Source: Spironucleus salmonicida (lineage: Eukaryota). Taken from it: a DNA stretch of 64,000 nt. The position numbers and the translations under genes are program-made. Below, piece by piece: positions 44,098 through 52,217 of this stretch (position 1 is its first letter; each line of letters begins with the position of its first letter). The DNA is taken from the NCBI RefSeq assembly GCF_000497125.1, contig NC_090596.1:1488001-1552000 (forward strand), in the 5' to 3' direction. The notes under the pieces are model-generated. The model made no database searches. It was given only the letters and a program-made list of their open reading frames with translations, and was not told where the DNA came from.

Positions 44098-44139
44098 AAA
44101 ATATTTATGATTTTGCTAATATAGGATAAAAAATAAATA

Positions 44140-45897
44140 TCATTTTCTGGGGGGTGGACCAGTTCTAAGAACTCCAGCATTTATAAGTCTCTGTAATTTC
44201 TTGCTTACTGCAGGGTCGCTTAAGAAATGTTAGGCCTACTGGGGATTTTACTAGATTACTTGAATCATTTAAGACATACCTGGGTCTTATGCTAAATTCT
44301 GCATATCTGGATCAGCCATCGCAATATTGGCAATTTCTTACATTTCTTATTCAGACAATTAGCCAGATTACATTTCATGGATTTTCATGCTAGTTTTCTA
44401 GAATCCATCCATCGCCTCAGCATTTTATGAATCTAACTAAATTACCTACTAATATGTCTCAACAGATAAATAATACTACTTACGTAAACGCTCGATTTAT
44501 GCTTTACGGAGAAGAGCTTTCAGATGGTTAGGATCTTCTTTTAACACTTTCTCACAATCTGCATACGAAGGATGGATTTACCCCGCTTTAAATAATGCAA
44601 GTGATCTATTGTTGTGCAACTAAATAAATATAACCTTTGAATCTGCATCCATTAAGTCGTAAGGAAGGTGTGCAATACCTTCGGTAAACTTTTCAGCAGC
44701 TTCAATGAATTTATTAGCTTTAAATAATTCATTACCTGCATTTTTCATATTAACTGCTTCTTCTGGACTATAAATAGATTTTTTCTTAAAAGCTGAAAAT
44801 TCATCCTCAACTTTATTTAATAAAGCCAAAGTAGTTTTATCTCTGAACTCAATCATAGAATCTTTCAAAACACGGATGGCATCTTCATATCTGTTAAGCT
44901 TATAAAGAGCAGAACCCTATTTTGATAGAGATTTTGCCATTTCTTAAAAGCTAGAAGATCCAGAATTCTCTCTACCGAACTGATATGCCTCCTCAGCCTT
45001 AGCTAAGGACTCCTAAAATTTACCTTGCTTAAGTAAGGCGGTAGCAATATTGTTTAAGAATGTAATATTTTTAAATTCTTCAAATGCTTTTTCATAACAT
45101 GTGATTGCTTCTTCATATTTAGCTTCCTTGAAATATACATTTCCTTGATTTTTAAACTCATCGGCTTTTATTTCCTCAGTAGATTTCATAGGTTTTGCCT
45201 CCACTTTAGGTGTTTCTACTTTAGGCTAAGCCTATTTTTCAGAGCAACAAGATCCTCCTGTATTTTAACAGCATGAATCTCCGCATTAATTATTATTTGG
45301 ACAAGATTTTTATTCTTATTATTGCATCATAGCCCCCATTCCCATCATTTCAAGAATAACATTCATTAATACTTTATCTGATTAAGCAGCCATCATAAAG
45401 TTAGGACTCTATCTTGCTGTATTTAAACGCACAAATAAAGTTGGATCTTATATTACCATTTATGAAACCTTGGGATTTCCAGCAATTTTCATTCTGAGTT
45501 CATCTTCAGTACGCCCTAATAATTAATACTGCATTTGATTTTACATATCACCAATAAAAGCTTCCCTTCTTTGAGCAATCAAAGGCTCATTGGGATCATT
45601 GGTAGCACCGTCTGTTAGTGCCTATAATGCCTCATCGCTTTTACCCATAGCATTTAATGAATCTGCGATTCTTACATAGCCCTTTCCAAAAGCTGGCTTA
45701 ATTTAAACGCATTATTTTCCATCTTCTAAAGCTTTTTCAAAATTTTTAGCTTAATAATAAATATTAGATCTATTACTATATAAGATGTGGTTTTCTGGTT
45801 CAATATCGATAGCTTTAGAGTAGCATTATATGGCAGTAGCATAATCTCCAATTTTAACTGCAGCGTTACCTTATTGTTTAAGTTCATCAACTGACAT
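44140..45897 (-). CDS. STI1: Hsp70/Hsp90 organizing protein STI1/HOP (585 aa)
   Basis: TPR1 ELKQQGNAA...NHILYSNRS; TPR2A ADEFKNQGNVYFK; TPR2B KNAGNELFK; C-terminal DP region MADPDMQNLAQDP...LQRLINAGVL. Confidence 0.93.
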
Positions 45898-46916
45898 TTG
45901 ATAAGAAAAGGAATTTATTTTGGTAAATTCAATTAAATTGATACTTATATAATATAATATTAGATATATATTTAATTTATTTTTAATGTTTTATAATTTT
46001 AATTAGTTCAACTTTGATAGAGGAATATTTAATATCAATTTATCTATTAAAACAATAATTTAATCGATCTTTACTAAAAACATATAATATCTCTTGCAAA
46101 ATAAGTATTTTTATTTTTAACCAAATCTAGAAAATTAAATTATAAATATATAAAGTACAATGCGTATAGCACTATTATTTTTATCAATCCTTATTGATAG
46201 GAGCATGTATTTTACTTTTAATATAAAGACTAGAAGGTTACATTAATTATTTTATTAATTAATCATTTTAGCGTATTAATATACTTACAGTTTTTTATTT
46301 TTGAATTAAAATAGTTATAGGATTAAAATTCAGTCAATACTCGTTGTAGATCATATTACCATACAATCCATTAAAAAAATTAAGAAAAAGTTTATTTCTA
46401 AATAATCGAATCAACACACAAATGAAAAATGATAAACATGATTATATTATTCATTTAAAAAGGCAAATAGCATTCCAAGTTTATCTTAGTAGAATTTTAT
46501 GGCATCGTAAAATGGTTTATTCGAGTATAACTATACTAGTAAAATAATTTTAATGATTACCTATTATATTATTCCAATTATATTATATGAACATTCAAAT
46601 CACTTATATTACTACATTATCTTTAATTTTATATTTAAATGATATATACCAGGTATAATTTAGTTTTATATCTTAATTTAGGGAGGCATTATATGAAATC
46701 TTAAAATAATATTTTTCATAGCATAAAAGTGATAAGCCACAAAGTTCCTTAATCACTATAATAATATTTAAACTTAGATTTGACATTTCGTGATTTTATA
46801 ATTAGTTTATTTTTATTAAAATTTAGTATTTGTTGTTGAATATACGATTTATGAAATTTCAAATTGATTTTAATAAATATAATATATAATATTTTGATAA
46901 AATAAGATCTATTTTA

Positions 46917-49382
46917 ATGCCAATTTATCTGGATCACAACGGAACTACCCCTATGTGTTAAGAAGTTTGCGATGAAATGTCTAAACTGCTGTAAATTTAA
47001 GATGGGAAAACATTTTGTTTTGGAAATCCATCATCCGCACATATATATGGGTTTTAAGCGAAGGAGAAGCTAGAAGAAAGCAGAAAGCACGTTGCAGATT
47101 TGTTTAATATTAGCAAAGATTTCGTATATTTTACGTCTGGAGGCACAGAATCGAATAATATGGTCATCATTGGACTATCACAATTAAATGAAGGTAGAGA
47201 AATCATTTCGGGCCCGTGCGAGCACCCATCCATCGAGGAACCAATTATTTACGCTAAAAGGGCATATTCTGTGAAACACAAAATTCTAAACTGCCTCAAG
47301 ACAGGCGAGCCGGATGTCGCCCAGCTAGAGTCGCTGCTTTCACCTCAAACCTTCTTGGTGACGACAATGCTTGCCCAGAACGAAATCGGAACGCTCACCG
47401 ACACACAAGAAATGTACTACACGATCAAATCCTACAACGAAGCGCACGGCACCAGCATCCTCTTTCACGTGGATGCATCCCAGGCGGTGGGGAAGACCGC
47501 TGTCGCCTTCTGTTGCGATTTGATGACGATTGCACCACACAAATTCTACGGTCCACGCGGCATCGGTTGCCTGCTTAGCCGCTAGCGGCCCCCAAAAATC
47601 GCCTACGGGGCGCCACAGGAGCGCTCGTGCAGGCCGGGGACCGAAAACCTGCTGGCGATTGTAGGAATGGCCAAGGCGTGCGAAGTTGCGGGGCGCGATT
47701 TACAGGTGAGAGTGCAGAGTAGTTGCCGCAAGGTACAGAAAATGTACGACGTGCTGCAGGCATCGAATCTGGACTTTGCGGTGAACGGGGCCGCGGGTAT
47801 TTTGCTAGAAAACGGGAAATTTGCATCCCACTTTTCGTAAAATGAGCAGATTTGCATTTCAAATACACTTTCCGTCTCTTTTAGGAACTGCCCAGCTAAT
47901 TCCATCATTTCGAGCCTGGCTGACAGCGTTTGTATTAGTGCTGGTGCTGCATGCCATAGCGATCGAATTGATATATCGTAGACCCTAAAAAGCATCGGGT
48001 TGGACTAATAATATGCTATGGGGACGATCAGAATTAGTGTAGGCGAGTTCGTCAGTTTGGAAGAGGCTGAAATTGGCATTTAGAAGATTATTTAGGTTGT
48101 TAAGTATTATTAAAGTGGAAATATGATGCGATTAGACGAGTTATCAGCGTTGACCTCTAGCTTACAGCCTGAAAATTCAGTTAAATCTGAGGAAATTGTT
48201 CTTTAAAATGTGGAATTGTAAATTGAAAAATACCCAGACACAGTGTAAAATAGTGTAGCTTTAACTGAATCCTGTCCCGTTATTTCTAAGACCTAAAATT
48301 TATTAAATTTGACCTCTGGATTAGGATGTGCATGCAAATTACGGCCATAGGCGTTGAGCAGAGTTCTCCAGTCGATAAATTTTGGAAAAGATCCAAATAT
48401 TTTGGTCTCATAAGCAACTGCTGATGATGCATGCGTTTATTAGCTTGATAATTAGCTTTTAGTTTCTACTACGGATTTCTTTTCGCCAGTTATTGATGAC
48501 GCATATTTATTTGGTAAAATTTCTGCTGCAAATGCCCTATCAGATGTTTATGCTATGAATTCGAAGCCTATTTTTGCAATCGCTATAGCTGGTTTCCCAA
48601 GCAACAGAATGAGCGAAGACTCTATGATTTAAGTTATTTAGGGGGCTGTTGATAAGTGTCAAGAAGCTGGAATAGTAATTAGCGGAGGACATACAATAGA
48701 GAGTATTGAGCCGTTCTTTGGACTGTGCGTTAATGGTATTTAAAACAGAATCGAAAAGATTAAACTTAACAGAATAGAAGAAAAAGTATGTCAAAACGAT
48801 ATTTACCTAGTGATGACGAAAAAATTAGGTGTTGGTATGCTGACAACCGCAATGAAAAGAGGCTTAATCTAAAACCGCTAAAATTATAAAGAAATATATG
48901 ATGAATTGGTTTGGAATATGGAGACACTCAATATTATTAAATAAGAGTTACCTGATCAAGTTGTTGCTTTAACTGACATTACAGGTTTTGGTCTAGCAGG
49001 CCATTTATCGGAAATGTTAATATAAGATGGCTTGAGTGCAGAAATTTATACTAAAAGCATTCCAGTCCTTAAAGGAGTATAGCAAATTTATGATTTGTAC
49101 CAAAAAATAGTTCTAACTAACGAAAACAATAAGATTTATGTTGCTAACAATAATTTTAAGCTTGATGATGTTCCTTTTTTTACTGATTTAGTCACTGATG
49201 CCACAACTTCAGGAGGATTACTTTTTGCTGTAAAAGGGTGGAACACAGCTACAGAAATAGCTGATTTATACGATGGCACTATCATTGGTCATGTTTTTAA
49301 GAGCGATGCATCATAGTAAATATTATTAACAGATGATAAGGCGAGAGAGAATGTACAAAGAGGCATAGGCTTCTTTAAATGA
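46917..49382 (+). CDS. Fusion of a NifS/selenocysteine-lyase-like PLP enzyme with selenophosphate synthetase (SelD), 821 aa
   Basis: N-half [67 protein letters not shown]-half GLGCACK, DDAC, TTDFFSP..DD...[36 protein letters not shown]. All in one frame with a TGA at the end. Confidence 0.93.
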
Positions 49383-49416
49383 TTTACTACATTTCATTTT
49401 CCGTTTCTTTTCAATA

Positions 49417-51120
49417 ATGAACCCTTAATTAAAAATTGAAAATGTGAGTTTTGTCCAACCGTCTCTACCTATTATTACAGCTGTAATATAATATAAGGAG
49501 ATGACTGTTATAAGTAGGTTCTCATAGCGCGTAGATTTCTTAATTGATAATTGTACTGTTCGATAGGTATATTTGCCAGGTTTCTATATTAAATCAATAA
49601 TGCCATCTAAAGATGGTATATACGTTCTTCCAGCTAACTTTGCTGGTTTATTACTGATTAAAGACAACGAACTTTTCCCAACTGTAATTCCTCTTTCTGC
49701 TTAGCCAGTAGATTTCTACACGTCTATAGAAACTGACAATATTGTGCTTAAATATGCATAAGATGTTTAAATTGTAGATTAGGAGATGCGCGTTATTAAA
49801 CGTTTTAATTGCCTACCAGGCTGTATCGACTGTCTTGTCTAAAATCTTGTACTTACAAAAATACTAGTATATGGTGACCAACTATAGCTCATTGACACCT
49901 AAACTGGAGAAACTGACGAAATTGAAGCATCAGGTTACGCTGTATTTCAGTTAAATGTTATCCATATCGCTCAGACTAAAATTATTGCAACCTACGATCT
50001 TGATCTCGATTTAATTTAGGAGACCCGTGTTCCATTTTTCGTTAACAAAATATCTATTCTTTCCTCACTCTCATTAATGGCAGGAGGTGGAACAAATACA
50101 GCAATTTTCACATTCCAGCAGCGTACTCTTCAGCTTAAAACAAAGTTCAGCTCAGTATCATCAGAACTAGTAGGTGGTGTTGAGACTGTTCAACATTATT
50201 AGCTTTTTGAGAAACTATGCTATTCACGAATCATCAACAAAACTACACTCCAGCCAACTACTTTTGTCCTTTCAGACCCTTTAAATCCGTAATTTTTAGA
50301 TAATTCTATTTTAGTTCGCTCATATCATGGTCTTGATTTTCTTAAAATTGAAAATGGATAAACTGTCATTTAAAAGCGCTTAAAGGCGAGTGGGAACGAG
50401 CAGTTTTTCTCAGTGATGGATGGTTCGAATTTGGGAGTATCAGATCGATCAAACGGATTAATTGTAGATTTTGCTGGTGTTTAAAATAGTTATTTGGTAA
50501 GTTATGCTGGGGAAAATGTAACAAAATGTTTTAGAAATGGAGAATTTATTAAAAATTTACCACTTTCTCTGGCAATAGCAAAATATGAAACAGGGTTTAT
50601 TTTGGCGTTTCCTAACGGCTTCTGCACTTGTGATTTAGACTTTAATTTAATGGCATTCAATAGATATGATGTTGGGGGTTAAAAAGTAATTCTGGGCAGC
50701 TTTGGTAAGCGTATTTTGGCAGTAATTGGAGGGATTTAGGTTGTTTTGATGGATTTGGAGTTGAAGATTTTGATATAATAACGTAGTGCACCGATTTTCG
50801 GATTTGAAATAGGTATGGATGAGATTGTTCTTAATAAGTTTAAGTAATAGGTAATTGTTAGCTTGGAATTATCTGTTTTACAGGCGTTTACAAAAACACA
50901 TGTGATTGGTTCTCATGTAGTCAACGGAAAAATCTATAGTTTGAACTAATATGGATTAGATAGCATGAAAAATAAAAGAGGTGATAGAGAAGGAATTTGG
51001 TATTTTGCTGGTGTACAACAGAATGGAATTATATACTTATTTAATAGGAACCAGATATTTGCTGAATGGGAACTGATTCACGGATCGACGTATGGGAAGG
51101 CTTTCCGTAGTTTGGATTGA
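49417..51120 (+). CDS. Beta-propeller-like hypothetical protein, weakly DDB1/CPSF1/SF3B3-like (567 aa)
   Basis: In frame with track ORF 50494..50682; repeated short beta-strand pattern; FLDNSILVRSYHG resembles a DDB1-family block. The family call is tentative. Confidence 0.55.
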
Positions 51121-51197
51121 GGGTCTTTATTAATTTTTTAAGTTAAATTTTAGAAATAATAATAATATATATTTTATAGTAAAATTTGAATTCTTGC

Positions 51198-52217
51198 ATG
51201 CCAGTTGGTCTTCAAAATTAAGGGAATACTTGCTACATGAACTCAGCATTACAGTTAATCACAAACTCAAGTTATTTGAGAGATGCTATATTAAGGTAAG
51301 ATAATCAATATGCATCAGCCTTGAAAAAAATTATTATTGCAAAGAGTAGTATTATCCCTAGAGAAATAAAAACACTTATGGGATTAAAGTATAGTCGTTT
51401 TCATGGATATTAATAATAAGATTCCCATGAGTTTATTTCACTTTGTCTAGGAATGTTGGAAGATGAAGAGGGTGTAAAAAATAAATACTATGAAGAAGTT
51501 AATTATGACTGTCCAATGTAAGAGGGATATGAAAAATATAGAGATTACTGTTTAAAAAGACAGACCTCAGAGATGTAGGAGCTGCTTAGATATTATAAAG
51601 TTTTAGATACACAGTGTGAAAATTGTGGTACAATAGGGTATAGTTTTCATGAGGATGAAAGTATTATCTTAAAAATTAAACAAGCTTCATAGGCAGGGAA
51701 AGACAAATCATAAGGATATATAAGTAGCTTTACCTTATTTTTTGGTGGTTCATCTGGCGAGCCAATTGATATGAATACATTGCTTGAATCATATTTTGCA
51801 ATAGAGACAACTGATAGGATTTGTAAAAAATGTAACTAATGTAAATTATCAACATAATTGAAGCTATGGACACTTCCAAAGTAGTTACTTATTGTTTTTG
51901 CAAGGTTTACTGGTAAGTTTACCAAATTGAACAACAAAATTAATTATGACTAAATTGTTAGTCTTAACAAATATTTCCATAATGATTCGCCATATAAAGA
52001 ATAAGAATAATTTAAGCTTGAAGCGGTATCATTACATTCGGGTTCTACATCAGGTGGGCATTATACTGCTTTTGTAATAGATGATGAAAATTCCATGTAT
52101 GACTGTAATGATAGTTGTGTATCAGAGACAACTAGTGTAATAAACGATCCAAGAGCATATGTTTTGAGCTATGCTATGTTAGAAAATTCAAATATAGTAG
52201 AGACCCAGGAAGAATGA
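51198..52217 (+). CDS. Ubiquitin-specific protease (peptidase C19), catalytic domain only (339 aa)
   Basis: GLQNQGNTCYMNSALQ, QQDSHEFI, CENC...CKKC zinc ribbon, VSLHSGSTSGGHYTA...CNDS. Confidence 0.93.

What the first reader, a model, noticed from the sequence alone, without database searches (positions are those of the whole stretch)
46917..49382. Single-polypeptide selenium supply enzyme: NifS/Sec-lyase fused to selenophosphate synthetase
Seen in sequence: one 821-codon frame holds a complete class-V PLP enzyme (PLP Lys in HKFYGPR, catalytic Cys at 47952), a ~60-70 aa linker, and a complete SelD (GCACK at 48324-48338). The fusion is invisible in the standard-code ORF track. Established: NifS-like enzymes and Sec lyases release selenium from selenocysteine and can feed SelD, which makes selenophosphate for Sec synthesis or tRNA 2-selenouridine; these are normally separate genes. 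Inference: the fusion channels toxic selenide directly and implies an active selenium-utilisation pathway in this anaerobic flagellate. I recall sporadic NifS-SelD fusions being reported in a few bacteria and protists, possibly including Spironucleus, so novelty must be checked.
Basis: partly seen in the sequence, partly recalled or inferred. Interest (0 to 1): 0.8.

Follow-up and report, generated by a model that had tools for sequence, protein, structure and literature searches.

The report
Known NifS–SelD selenium enzyme fusion
One gene of this anaerobic flagellate joins a selenium-releasing enzyme to the enzyme that makes selenophosphate; the reading is correct, but the same fusion was already described for Spironucleus and is common in bacteria.

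Summary
Observation confirmed. window:46917-49382(+) is one 821-codon frame under table 6, with 30 TAA/TAG read as Gln, no in-frame TGA and a TGA stop. It holds a class-V PLP NifS-like domain (res 3-383), a disordered linker of about 56 residues, and a full Cys-type SelD (TIGR00476, 289 bits against a cutoff of 125).

Contigs of 4/4 runs bridge the linker without change, and one carries a poly(A) end 14 nt after the stop.

The fusion is not new. It is published for Spironucleus salmonicida (PMC3916229, PMC6397501) and other protists (PMC4561486). All 117 best bacterial-type hits checked are fused.

Both halves nest in bacterial clades together with Hexamita, Chilomastix and, for SelD, Kipferlia and Aduncisulcus. 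This fits one old transfer of an already fused gene.

Three small additions:
- A P/A/H signature at the three Sec-versus-Cys specificity positions.
- A conserved linker cysteine (C453) in the fornicate forms.
- A wider fornicate distribution than the "recent gain" inferred in 2010.

Selenium channelling and the Sec machinery of this genome could not be tested.

The parts
46917..49382 (+). Whole gene: 821 codons + TGA, read with TAA/TAG = Gln (NifS-like + linker + SelD)
   Evidence: contigs of 4/4 runs cover 46929/46952 to 49326/49396 with 0 differences, 0 gaps, no joints
46917..48116 (+). NifS-like class-V PLP domain (res 1-400), group I, P/A/H subfamily
   Evidence: Pfam PF00266 res 3-383, 6.7e-45. 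PDB T. maritima NifS 1ecx 3.9e-46 over res 1-399. pLDDT mostly >90. Nested in the 99* P/A/H clade
47223..47228 (+). H103-P104: PLP-stacking His followed by Pro, at the position of human Sec lyase D146 (Lys in generic group-I desulfurases)
   Evidence: Mapping (papers) and the alignment (T. maritima NifS has EHK here). Pro in 127/128 fused and 120/120 nearest free relatives
47541..47543 (+). K209, PLP-binding lysine (AAA); A206 at K-3 is the V256-equivalent
47952..47957 (+). C346-H347: catalytic cysteine (TGC) of the mobile loop, followed by His as in Sec-specific lyases
   Evidence: Aligned to the catalytic Cys of T. maritima NifS. C and H in 128/128 fused and 120/120 free relatives. pLDDT <50 at 346-350
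48117..48290 (+). Linker, res 401-458: disordered and unconserved. Distance from the NifS envelope end to the Gly-rich motif is about 70-80 aa here, against 20-29 aa in 120 of 134 fused relatives
48273..48275 (+). C453 ('ESCP'), linker cysteine conserved in fornicate-type fusions
   Evidence: A Cys 7-25 aa upstream of the Gly-rich motif in 6/6 named fornicate sequences and in unnamed P0184, P0127/P0275, P0130/P0276. Only 3 of 138 bacterial-type sequences have one 8-32 aa upstream
48291..49379 (+). SelD (selenide, water dikinase) domain, Cys type, plus a short C-terminal tail shared with Hexamita
   Evidence: TIGR00476 res 463-773, 289.4 bits > 125. E. coli SelD 3u0o 5.3e-62. AIRS and AIRS_C. 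Tail:
48318..48338 (+). Gly-rich N-terminal loop of SelD, G468-K474 (GLGCACK), with C471 = E. coli Cys17 and K474 = Lys20
   Evidence: alignment; invariant in A1/A3; C471 codon TGT, so Cys not Sec; pLDDT <50 at 469-475
49380..49396 (+). TGA stop and a very short 3' end; the poly(A) loose end starts after 49396
   Evidence: X2 contig ends at 49396 followed by 11 A (table 7). PMC2874811 (passages) describes poly(A) sites close to UGA in Spironucleus
46851..46916 (+). In-frame upstream ATG with 22 extra codons; probably not the start
   Evidence: Listed, sequence. Homologues start at the Met of 46917. No contig reaches it (contigs cannot show a start)

Best explanation
This is the nuclear gene of a diplomonad for a bifunctional NifS-like / SelD protein. 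The organism is most likely Spironucleus salmonicida or a very close relative.

Shown here: one open frame, one contig-bridged message, both domains complete, and every catalytic residue retained.

Inferred mechanism:
1. The N-terminal PLP domain splits selenocysteine (perhaps also cysteine) into alanine and a selenium atom. That atom is held as a sulfoselenide on C346 of its mobile loop.
2. The flexible linker of about 56 residues keeps the SelD domain next to it. The selenium passes to C471/K474 in SelD's mobile Gly-rich loop, possibly via the conserved linker cysteine C453.
3. SelD uses ATP to make selenophosphate.
4. In Spironucleus this product feeds Sec-tRNA synthesis (PSTK/SepSecS, per the literature) for a few selenoproteins such as SelW, and perhaps another selenium use.

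Origin: the gene was acquired as an already fused gene from anaerobic bacteria, early in Fornicata. It then gained a NifS insert, a longer linker with the Cys, and a C-terminal tail.
For: Frame and code.

Domains and residues. K209, C346, H103, D186, Q189, R372, C471, K474, D504, D520, N539 and D543 are invariant in A1 and/or aligned to E. coli SelD and T. maritima NifS.

Model: mean pLDDT 83.1, two confident domains, disordered linker, and low confidence exactly at the two catalytic loops.

Message: 4/4 runs have one contig over 46929-49396 or 46950-49326 with no differences, gaps or joints, and one has a poly(A) loose end.

Eukaryotic setting: HOP/STI1, UCH, CFAP61, V-ATPase a, E1 and kinases as neighbours.

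Fusion is the rule among relatives: 2863 hits with E<=1e-3 among 8000 scored; of the 120 listed, 117/117 bacterial-type plus P0002 and P0003 carry both domains.

Bacterial-type SelD: 213 bits to E. coli SelD against 76 bits to human SPS1.

Trees:
- Careful SelD tree (49 rows): window+P0003+Hexamita+P0121 at 100/99*; with Aduncisulcus, Chilomastix, Kipferlia and P0184 at 100/99*. A 96/91* split puts them with 15 of 17 NifS-fused SelDs, away from 18/18 free SelDs.
- NifS tree with K/S/T outgroup (55 rows, quick): P/A/H clade 99*, with the fornicate halves (98*) nested in it.

Literature (passages read):
- PMC3916229: the fusion plus the Sec machinery in S. salmonicida.
- PMC6397501: expressed, log2 change of about +1.5 with O2.
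- PMC4561486: NifS-SPS fusions of protists explained by transfer from bacteria.
- PMC3266270: delivery of Se from the mobile Cys segment to SPS Cys17 is proposed.
Against: - No assay, so channelling and Sec preference are inferred.
- The Sec machinery could not be looked for, because no genome is held. The window itself has no tRNA or Rfam match and no other selenium gene.
- The kind of the four runs is only guessed. They come from one study and are kept as contigs, which cannot show transcript ends or rule out a second, internal start.
- The NifS half of the window protein sits on a long branch (2.04, 1.31).
- It reaches no NCBIfam cysteine-desulfurase or Sec-lyase cutoff. One of two SelD equivalogs is just missed (NF002098, 275.9 < 299).
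- Free-standing members of the same P/A/H NifS subfamily are not next to selD. This holds for 0 of 21 loci, some with short flanks. The subfamily as such is therefore not shown to be selenium-dedicated.
- The organism's name is inferred, not read from a record.
Confidence: 0.85

Rival explanations
1. The NifS-like half is a general cysteine desulfurase supplying sulfur for other pathways, for example thiolation or Fe-S work. SelD takes free selenide from elsewhere. The fusion is then a co-regulation device, not a selenium relay.
For: Bacterial NifS-like enzymes generally act on both Cys and Sec (PMC3266270, passages). Free members of the same P/A/H subfamily have no selD nearby in 0/21 loci, and their neighbours are varied; only a DsrE-like ORF recurs, in 4/21.
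Against: - Fusion to SelD occurs only inside this subfamily: 8/29 P/A/H loci against 0/51 loci with other signatures. It is kept in thousands of sequences.
- The Lys that human Sec lyase needs in order to gain desulfurase activity (D146K) is replaced by Pro. The His after the catalytic Cys is as in Sec-specific lyases.
- S. salmonicida already has an organellar IscS for Fe-S clusters (PMC6006210, passages).
Confidence: 0.1
2. The protein's selenophosphate serves mainly a use other than selenocysteine. Candidates are 2-selenouridine in tRNA or a selenium cofactor (the 'third trait').
For: Xu 2014 reports only three SelW-type selenoproteins, plus three identical homologues of a gene linked to Sec-independent selenium use (PMC3916229, passages).
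Against: The same paper reports tRNA-Sec, PSTK, SepSecS and the Sec elongation factor. Mariotti 2015 finds selenoproteins and Sec machinery in all genomes with extended SPS genes. Nothing here tests it, since no genome is held.
Confidence: 0.1
3. The frame is an artefact: bacterial contamination or a mis-assembly joining two genes, or a pseudogene that is open only because table 6 removes two stops.
For: Under table 6 many spurious long ORFs appear in this A+T-rich window. Both halves are of bacterial type.
Against: - 30 in-frame TAA/TAG lie inside well-aligned domains. Their positions are Gln-enriched to the same degree as the CAA/CAG positions, which no bacterium would tolerate.
- The neighbours are eukaryotic.
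- Contigs of 4 runs reproduce the junction exactly, one with a poly(A) end.
- Hexamita and Chilomastix have the same architecture and shared inserts.
Confidence: 0.01

Closest known systems
Spironucleus salmonicida 'selenophosphate synthetase - NifS fusion protein' (Xu et al. 2014, PMC3916229; SS50377_16780 / EST43726.1 in Stairs et al. 2019, PMC6397501)
   Same: Architecture, code-6 host, bacterial affinity and proposed role (Sec lyase feeding SPS). It is probably this very gene. In a search of 5.8 billion proteins, no separately named Spironucleus sequence appears beside the window's own masked entry, and the next hit is Hexamita at 42%.
   Different: Identity cannot be read from a record, because names of the window's own proteins are masked. 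The 2014 text places the NifS part 'in its C-terminal end', whereas here NifS is N-terminal. It also says the fusion was otherwise known only from Caldithrix abyssi, which is now outdated.
Bacterial/archaeal NifS-SelD fusions of about 732-745 aa (Caldithrix abyssi, Geobacter sp. FRC-32; Zixibacteria, Calditrichia, KSB1, Bacteroidales MAGs)
   Same: Same domain order, 36-41% identity over 94-100% of the length. Same P/A/H signature and mostly the Cys-type SelD loop. Both halves of the window protein nest among them.
   Different: - Short linker: 20-29 aa in 120/134.
- No linker Cys: 3/138.
- No insert after the 'NG' motif of the NifS half.
- No C-terminal tail.
- Standard code.
- Geobacter's has Sec in SelD (PMC4561486), whereas this one has TGT Cys.
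Hexamita inflata 'Cysteine desulfurase / Selenide, water dikinase' (P0002, 815 aa) and Chilomastix cuspidata P0131 (814 aa, transcriptome)
   Same: Orthologous fused forms. They form a clade with the window protein in both halves (98*; 100/99*). They share the NifS insert and the linker Cys. P0002 also shares the long linker and the tail.
   Different: Only 36-44% identical overall. The window's NifS half is the most divergent.
NifS-SPS fusions of Naegleria gruberi and Acanthamoeba castellanii (Mariotti et al. 2015, PMC4561486)
   Same: Protist genes with the same architecture, explained by transfer of a fusion made in bacteria.
   Different: Not compared here. No sequence by those names was among the hits I looked up, so whether they share the fornicate inserts or the linker Cys is unknown. 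That paper's text holds no 'Spironucleus' or 'diplomonad'; its supplements could not be seen.
Separate Sec lyase (SCLY) + SPS2 of animals and trypanosomatids; E. coli NifS-like proteins (CsdB/SufS, CsdA, IscS) + SelD
   Same: Works alike. A NifS-like PLP enzyme loads selenium on its catalytic Cys and hands it to the Cys/Sec of the SPS N-terminal loop (PMC3266270, passages; Lacourciere 2000 as cited in PMC3916229 and PMC4561486).
   Different: - Two proteins that must meet in trans.
- Animal SCLY has D/V/H at the three specificity positions, whereas this protein has P/A/H.
- Animal SPS is only distantly similar: 76 bits against 213 bits for E. coli SelD.

Membership tests
Class-V PLP aminotransferase fold, group-I NifS-like proteins | Match to Pfam PF00266 above its gathering score | tested here: met
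   154.1 bits against 21.5, res 3-383
Class-V PLP aminotransferase fold, group-I NifS-like proteins | PLP lysine, PLP-stacking His, Asp/Gln at the pyridine ring, substrate Arg, and catalytic Cys in a long mobile segment (group-I consensus SSGSACTS as quoted in the preprint) | tested here: met
   K209, H103, D186, Q189, R372 and C346 are invariant in A1 and in 248 relatives. The segment reads SAGAACHS. It is aligned to the catalytic Cys of T. maritima NifS. Roles of D186, Q189 and R372 are recalled, not tested
Cysteine desulfurase equivalogs NifS / IscS / DndA / SufS / CsdA (NCBIfam) | Score at or above the curated cutoff of the model | tested here: not met
   TIGR03402 235.1 < 530.75; TIGR03235 226.2 < 480; NF010611 208.1 < 548; TIGR02006 202.6 < 643.2; sufS 71.3 < 475.1
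Sec-specific selenocysteine lyase of animals (SCLY) | Asp at hSCL 146, Val at 256, His at 389 (Collins 2012, PMC3266270) | tested here: not met
   P104 / A206 / H347: only the His agrees. The Lys of generic desulfurases is also absent, so specificity cannot be read from sequence
Bacterial Sec lyase SclA (NCBIfam NF040779, group II) | Score at or above the cutoff | tested here: not met
   54.3 bits < 525
SelD / selenophosphate synthetase (selenide, water dikinase) | Equivalog model TIGR00476 above cutoff; AIRS + AIRS_C domains | tested here: met
   289.4 > 125, res 463-773. PF00586 and PF02769 both above cutoff. A second model, NF002098, is just below its cutoff (275.9 < 299)
SelD / selenophosphate synthetase (selenide, water dikinase) | N-terminal Gly-rich loop with Cys or Sec and Lys (E. 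coli Cys17, Lys20), and the Asp/Asn metal-ATP ligands | tested here: met
   C471 and K474 aligned to Cys17 and Lys20. D504, D520, N539 and D543 aligned to E. coli D51, D68, N87 and D91. All are invariant in A1. The ligand roles are recalled. Enzyme activity is not testable here
NifS-SelD (NifS-SPS) fusion proteins | NifS-like domain N-terminal to SelD in one reading frame | tested here: met
   same order in 117/117 bacterial-type hits and in P0002, P0131
NifS-SelD (NifS-SPS) fusion proteins | One message across the junction | tested here: inconclusive
   Contigs of 4/4 runs (one study, kind guessed) bridge 48100-48300 unchanged, and one ends in poly(A). Contigs cannot exclude an extra internal start. 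Published RNA-seq treats the S. salmonicida gene as one unit (PMC6397501)
NifS-SelD (NifS-SPS) fusion proteins | Genome also holds selenophosphate-using machinery (tRNA-Sec, PSTK, SepSecS, eEFSec; or SelU; or YqeB/C) | not testable with these tools
   No genome held. Nothing in the window. Reported for S. salmonicida in PMC3916229, PMC1805757 and PMC2874811 (passages)
Eukaryotic-type SPS2 | Closer to eukaryotic/archaeal SPS than to bacterial SelD | tested here: not met
   E. coli SelD 213.3 bits and A. aeolicus 160.8, against human SPS1 76.4 and a 'putative selenophosphate synthetase' chain (5l16) 57.9. Nested among bacterial fused SelDs

The most novel reading that the evidence does not exclude
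The fornicate NifS-SelD proteins are a derived three-cysteine selenium relay. A Sec-preferring lyase carries the P/A/H signature: no thiolate-stabilising Lys, and His after the catalytic Cys. It loads selenium on C346, passes it to a conserved cysteine in the long flexible linker (C453), and from there to C471 of SelD, so that no free selenide is released.

The fused gene entered once, near the base of Fornicata, not recently in Spironucleus as inferred in 2010. It was then lost in Giardia and S. vortens. On this reading the P/A/H signature would mark a large, unrecognised family of selenium-dedicated NifS-like enzymes in anaerobes.
Probability: 0.2. Interest if true: 0.55.

Novelty: already known. 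Interest (0 to 1): 0.27.

Why it matters
The gene is the entry point of selenium into selenoprotein synthesis in a fish-pathogenic diplomonad. A fused Sec lyase would let the cell recycle selenocysteine from ingested prey or host protein without releasing toxic selenide. That idea, and the gene, are already in print, so the finding adds no new kind of system.

- The fusion is a widespread bacterial design, not a rarity.
- It is shared by several fornicate lineages, so the acquisition is older than proposed in 2010.
- Its NifS half belongs to a subfamily with an unusual P/A/H pattern at the three positions known to govern selenium-over-sulfur choice.
- The eukaryotic versions carry a conserved linker cysteine.

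The last two points give cheap, direct mutagenesis targets for how selenium is told from sulfur and handed between enzymes.

Tried and rejected
- **Own-genome searches** for tRNA-Sec (RF01852), SepSecS (PF05889) and SelU (TIGR03167): no genome is held. Nothing can be said about the machinery.
- **Window scans:** ARAGORN and Rfam found 0 tRNA and 0 families. Pfam on 27 further ORFs found no other selenium gene.
- **Prior notes of this scan:** none for this genome or by sequence.
- **Sequencing runs:** no RNA holder is listed. The four holders are of guessed kind and come from one study. The intergenic stretch 45887-46928 had no cover in them, and depths differ between genes.
- **Complex prediction** of the two halves (answer): not folded under a rule of the tool, so no verdict. 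Not pursued further.
- **Neighbourhood test of the P/A/H subfamily:** I asked whether the signature marks selenium enzymes by looking for selD beside free-standing members. The result was 0/21, with unrelated neighbours, so that support is rejected. A first version of the neighbour script crashed.
- **First NifS tree** had no outgroup, so it could not show nesting. It was redone with one.
- **Rejected readings:**
  - Ciliate origin. Code 6 would allow it, but both halves group with fornicates, there are no joints in 8.5 kb of contigs, and poly(A) lies next to the stop.
  - Sec-type SelD. The codon is TGT.
  - Start at ATG 46851. Homologues start at 46917.
- **Searches for a published fornicate-wide account** found none.
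Full report
**1.

Read with NCBI table 6, window:46917-49382(+) gives 821 residues and a TGA stop. Thirty in-frame TAA/TAG become Gln and there is no internal TGA. With the bacterial/standard code the longest ORF of the region is 161 aa, so a standard ORF track cannot show the gene.

Family matches:
- Pfam finds Aminotran_5 (res 3-383, 6.7e-45), AIRS (503-608) and AIRS_C (631-797).
- NCBIfam's SelD equivalog TIGR00476 matches res 463-773 at 289.4 bits, against a cutoff of 125.
- Against solved structures the best matches are E. coli SelD (5.3e-62, res 462-773) and the T. maritima NifS-like protein (3.9e-46, res 1-399).

- K209 in HKFYGPR.
- C346 (TGC) at 47952.
- GCACK at 48324-48338, with C471 (TGT) aligned to E. 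coli Cys17 and K474 to Lys20.

The code-6 reading is supported by the gene itself. In 77 fused homologues the 30 TAA/TAG positions hold Gln in 263 of 1931 filled cells (13.6%). The background is 3.1%, and the 20 canonical CAA/CAG positions give 16.2%. Examples are 65/77 at Q478 and 54/77 at Q47.

**2. Anatomy**

The AlphaFold2 model, built on a 78-row alignment, has mean pLDDT 83.1 and pTM 0.69. It shows two confident domains (about 1-400 and 476-805). pLDDT is below 50 only at 346-350, 403-413, 415-458, 469-475 and 808-821. These low-confidence stretches are the linker, the C-terminal tail, and exactly the two catalytic loops. The paper on human Sec lyase describes the group-I Cys segment as mobile or disordered in crystals (PMC3266270, passages).

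An in-frame ATG 22 codons upstream (46851) exists. However, homologues begin at the Met of 46917.

**3. Setting**

The window's other ORFs with Pfam matches are ordinary eukaryotic genes:
- E1 ubiquitin-activating enzyme
- UTP25
- two kinases
- two UCH peptidases
- V-ATPase subunit a
- a gamma-tubulin complex protein
- 5'-nucleotidase
- an LRR protein
- HOP/STI1, directly upstream on the other strand
- CFAP61, two genes downstream
- Sec1

There is no other selenium gene, no tRNA and no Rfam family in the 64 kb. No whole genome is held.

**4. Transcript evidence**

Four runs of one study hold 87-88% of the sampled words. Their kind is not on record and is only guessed to be RNA.

I laid them on window:44000-52500. 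Each has one contig over the gene: 46929-49396, 46952-49396, 46934-49326 and 46950-49326. These contigs show 0 other letters, 0 gaps and no joints. The X2 contig ends at 49396 with a loose end of 11 A, 14 nt past the stop.

So the junction 48100-48300 is bridged unchanged, with no TGA, frameshift or intron, and at least one run looks like poly(A) cDNA. Contigs cannot show starts or exclude an additional internal start. Uncovered intergenic stretches and depth differences are not used as evidence.

Independently, Stairs et al. 2019 list the S. salmonicida 'Selenophosphate synthase, NifS fusion' as one gene induced about 1.5 log2 by oxygen (PMC6397501, tables read in passages). Roxström-Lindquist et al. 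2010 describe poly(A) addition close to the UGA stop in Spironucleus (PMC2874811, passages).

**5. Relatives**

A full-length search gave 2863 proteins at E<=1e-3 among the 8000 candidates scored.
- The best non-self hit is Hexamita inflata 'Cysteine desulfurase / Selenide, water dikinase' (815 aa, 42%).
- It is followed by fused proteins of about 732-756 aa from uncultured bacteria and one Thorarchaeota-labelled MAG, at 35-41%.
- My phmmer check found both domains in 117 of 117 of P0004-P0120.

The SelD half alone, scored against 1.84 billion representatives, gave 7241 hits. Its best matches include:
- Kipferlia bialata: partial, with a remnant of the NifS C-terminus.
- Aduncisulcus paluster.
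- Chilomastix cuspidata: 814 aa, fused.
- Fused bacterial forms.

*SelD tree.* A careful IQ-TREE analysis of the SelD half used 49 rows and 328 columns, with support given as UFBoot/SH-aLRT.
- It joins window + P0003 + Hexamita + P0121 at 100/99*.
- It joins that group with Aduncisulcus, Chilomastix, Kipferlia and unnamed P0184 at 100/99*.
- A 96/91* split places them with 15 of the 17 NifS-fused SelDs sampled, and apart from all 18 free SelDs.
- The rows were a hand-picked subset of the 80 used in the quick tree, which agrees.

*NifS tree.* For the NifS half, a quick tree used generic K/S/T desulfurases as outgroup (55 rows).
- It recovers a 99* clade of 34 rows: 17 free, 12 fused and 5 that I labelled eukaryote-type.
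- Inside it, window + Hexamita + P0003 + Chilomastix form a 98* clade.
- The fifth row, unnamed P0127, groups with a prokaryote-labelled fusion and may not be eukaryotic.
- The window's NifS half is on a long branch (1.31; 2.04). Quick-tree stars deserve less trust with such rows.

*Reading.* The congruent placement of both halves fits one transfer of an already fused bacterial gene into an early fornicate. So do the shared derived characters: an insert after the 'NG' motif of the NifS half in the window, Hexamita, P0003, Chilomastix and P0184, and a longer linker and C-terminal tail in the diplomonads.
- This matches the general explanation of Mariotti et al. 2015 for protist NifS-SPS fusions (PMC4561486, passages).
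- It then requires losses in Giardia and S. vortens.
- I found no paper stating the wider distribution (searches; supplements not visible).

**6. Which organism**

The tools mask names for the window's own proteins. The evidence is:
- the code;
- the fornicate placement as sister to the Hexamita group;
- the poly(A) position;
- the absence of any separately named Spironucleus hit in a collection that does hold Hexamita and Kipferlia.

From this I infer, at about 85%, that the window is S. salmonicida or a very close relative. The gene would then be the one described by Xu et al. 2014 (PMC3916229, passages).

That paper reports the fusion together with tRNA-Sec, PSTK, SepSecS and the Sec elongation factor. 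It also reports three SelW paralogues and three copies of a gene linked to Sec-independent selenium use. It proposes that the NifS part is a Sec lyase letting the parasite use ingested selenoproteins.

Two statements there need updating. The NifS part is N-terminal, not at the C-terminal end. The fusion is far from unique to Caldithrix.

**7. How it most likely works**

*Shown here.* All residues needed by both enzymes are kept.
- K209, H103, D186, Q189, R372 and C346 are conserved in the NifS half.
- C471, K474, D504, D520, N539 and D543 align to E. coli SelD Cys17, Lys20, D51, D68, N87 and D91.
- This rests. The roles of the Asp/Asn residues are recalled.

*Established.* NifS-like enzymes form a Cys-bound persulfide or sulfoselenide, and can supply selenium to SelD, whose N-terminal Cys/Sec is the proposed acceptor (PMC3266270, passages).

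*Inferred.* In the fusion, the tether of about 56 residues keeps the two mobile loops close together, so that selenium moves from C346 to C471 without free selenide. SelD then makes selenophosphate for Sec-tRNA synthesis.

**8. Two details that go beyond the papers I read**

*(a) A P/A/H pattern at the specificity positions.* Collins et al. 2012 identify three positions that separate Sec-specific human lyase (D146, V256, H389) from generic enzymes (Lys in group I or His in group II; Ser/Thr; Thr/Ala).
- Using the mapping (H145/D146 follow each other; K259 is the PLP Lys; H389 follows C388), the window protein has P104, A206 and H347.
- The same P/A/H pattern holds in 127/128, 127/128 and 128/128 fused relatives, and in 120/120 of the nearest free-standing NifS-like proteins.
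- T. maritima NifS shows K/S/T in the alignment.
- Among 80 prokaryotic loci, 29 have P/A/H and 8 of these are fused to SelD. None of the 51 loci with other patterns is fused.
- However, the 21 free P/A/H genes have no selD in the flanks held, and their neighbours are unrelated. Only a DsrE-like ORF recurs, in 4 loci, with Pfam confirmed for 3.
- The pattern therefore defines the subfamily in which the fusion arose. Absence of the thiolate-stabilising Lys, plus His after the Cys, hints at a preference for selenium. That is not shown.

*(b) A conserved linker cysteine.* The otherwise unconserved linker carries a cysteine (C453, 'ESCP') 15-17 residues before the Gly-rich loop.
- A Cys 7-25 residues upstream is present in all six named fornicate sequences, and in unnamed P0184, P0127/P0275 and P0130/P0276.
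- It is absent from unnamed P0125, P0128 and P0129.
- Only 3 of 138 bacterial-type sequences have one.
- It could be an extra relay or resolving cysteine. This is speculation.

**9. Earlier notes of this scan**

Earlier notes in this scan on bacterial NifS-SelD fusions reached the same verdict of 'real but already described'. One note, on a cysteine-bearing carrier domain fused before SelD, is an interesting parallel to the linker cysteine. I did not test it.

**10. Verdict**

The object is already known: published for what is very probably this organism, and common in bacteria. Interest is low to moderate. The refinements (older fornicate origin, P/A/H signature, linker Cys) are leads for bench work, not a new kind of system.

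Noticed in passing
window:58226-61073: A 2.85-kb pure (TATAA)n microsatellite, about 569 copies at 97% matches. It accounts for the 3-12% G+C dip at 58-62 kb and creates huge spurious ORFs under table 6.
   Followed up: partly
window:48273-48275 (C453) and the same place in P0002, P0003, P0122, P0131, P0272: A conserved cysteine in the otherwise unconserved, disordered NifS-SelD linker of fornicate-type fusions. It is nearly absent from bacterial-type sequences: 3/138.
   Followed up: partly
window:49380-49396: A poly(A) loose end begins 14 nt after the TGA stop (X2 contig). The upstream minus-strand gene (HOP/STI1) likewise shows a T-run plus adapter just beyond its end at 44127. This fits the published idea that UGA doubles as a poly(A) signal in Spironucleus (PMC2874811).
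   Followed up: partly
window:49501-51120 (+): The gene directly downstream (539 aa from the ATG at 49501) has no Pfam match. Contigs of all 4 runs cover 49424/49452-51094/51122. Function unknown.
   Followed up: no
window:18669-26897 (-): A 2742-codon ORF under table 6 has no Pfam family at E<=1e-5. It may be a large lineage-specific, coiled-coil-like protein.
   Followed up: no
L011:3742-4092, L012:1132-1449, L013:7126-7443 (and L037): A small DsrE/DsrF-like ORF lies just downstream of free-standing P/A/H NifS-like genes in 4 of 21 bacterial loci, with Pfam PF02635 confirmed for 3. It may be a sulfur or selenium relay partner.
   Followed up: partly
P0127 / P0275 (unnamed, 819 aa): This fused homologue has a Gly/Asp-rich insert of about 9 residues directly after the catalytic Cys-His of the NifS half.
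   Followed up: no
window:12956-13822 (+) and 51066-52217 (+): Two ubiquitin C-terminal hydrolase (UCH) paralogues lie in the same 64-kb window.
   Followed up: no
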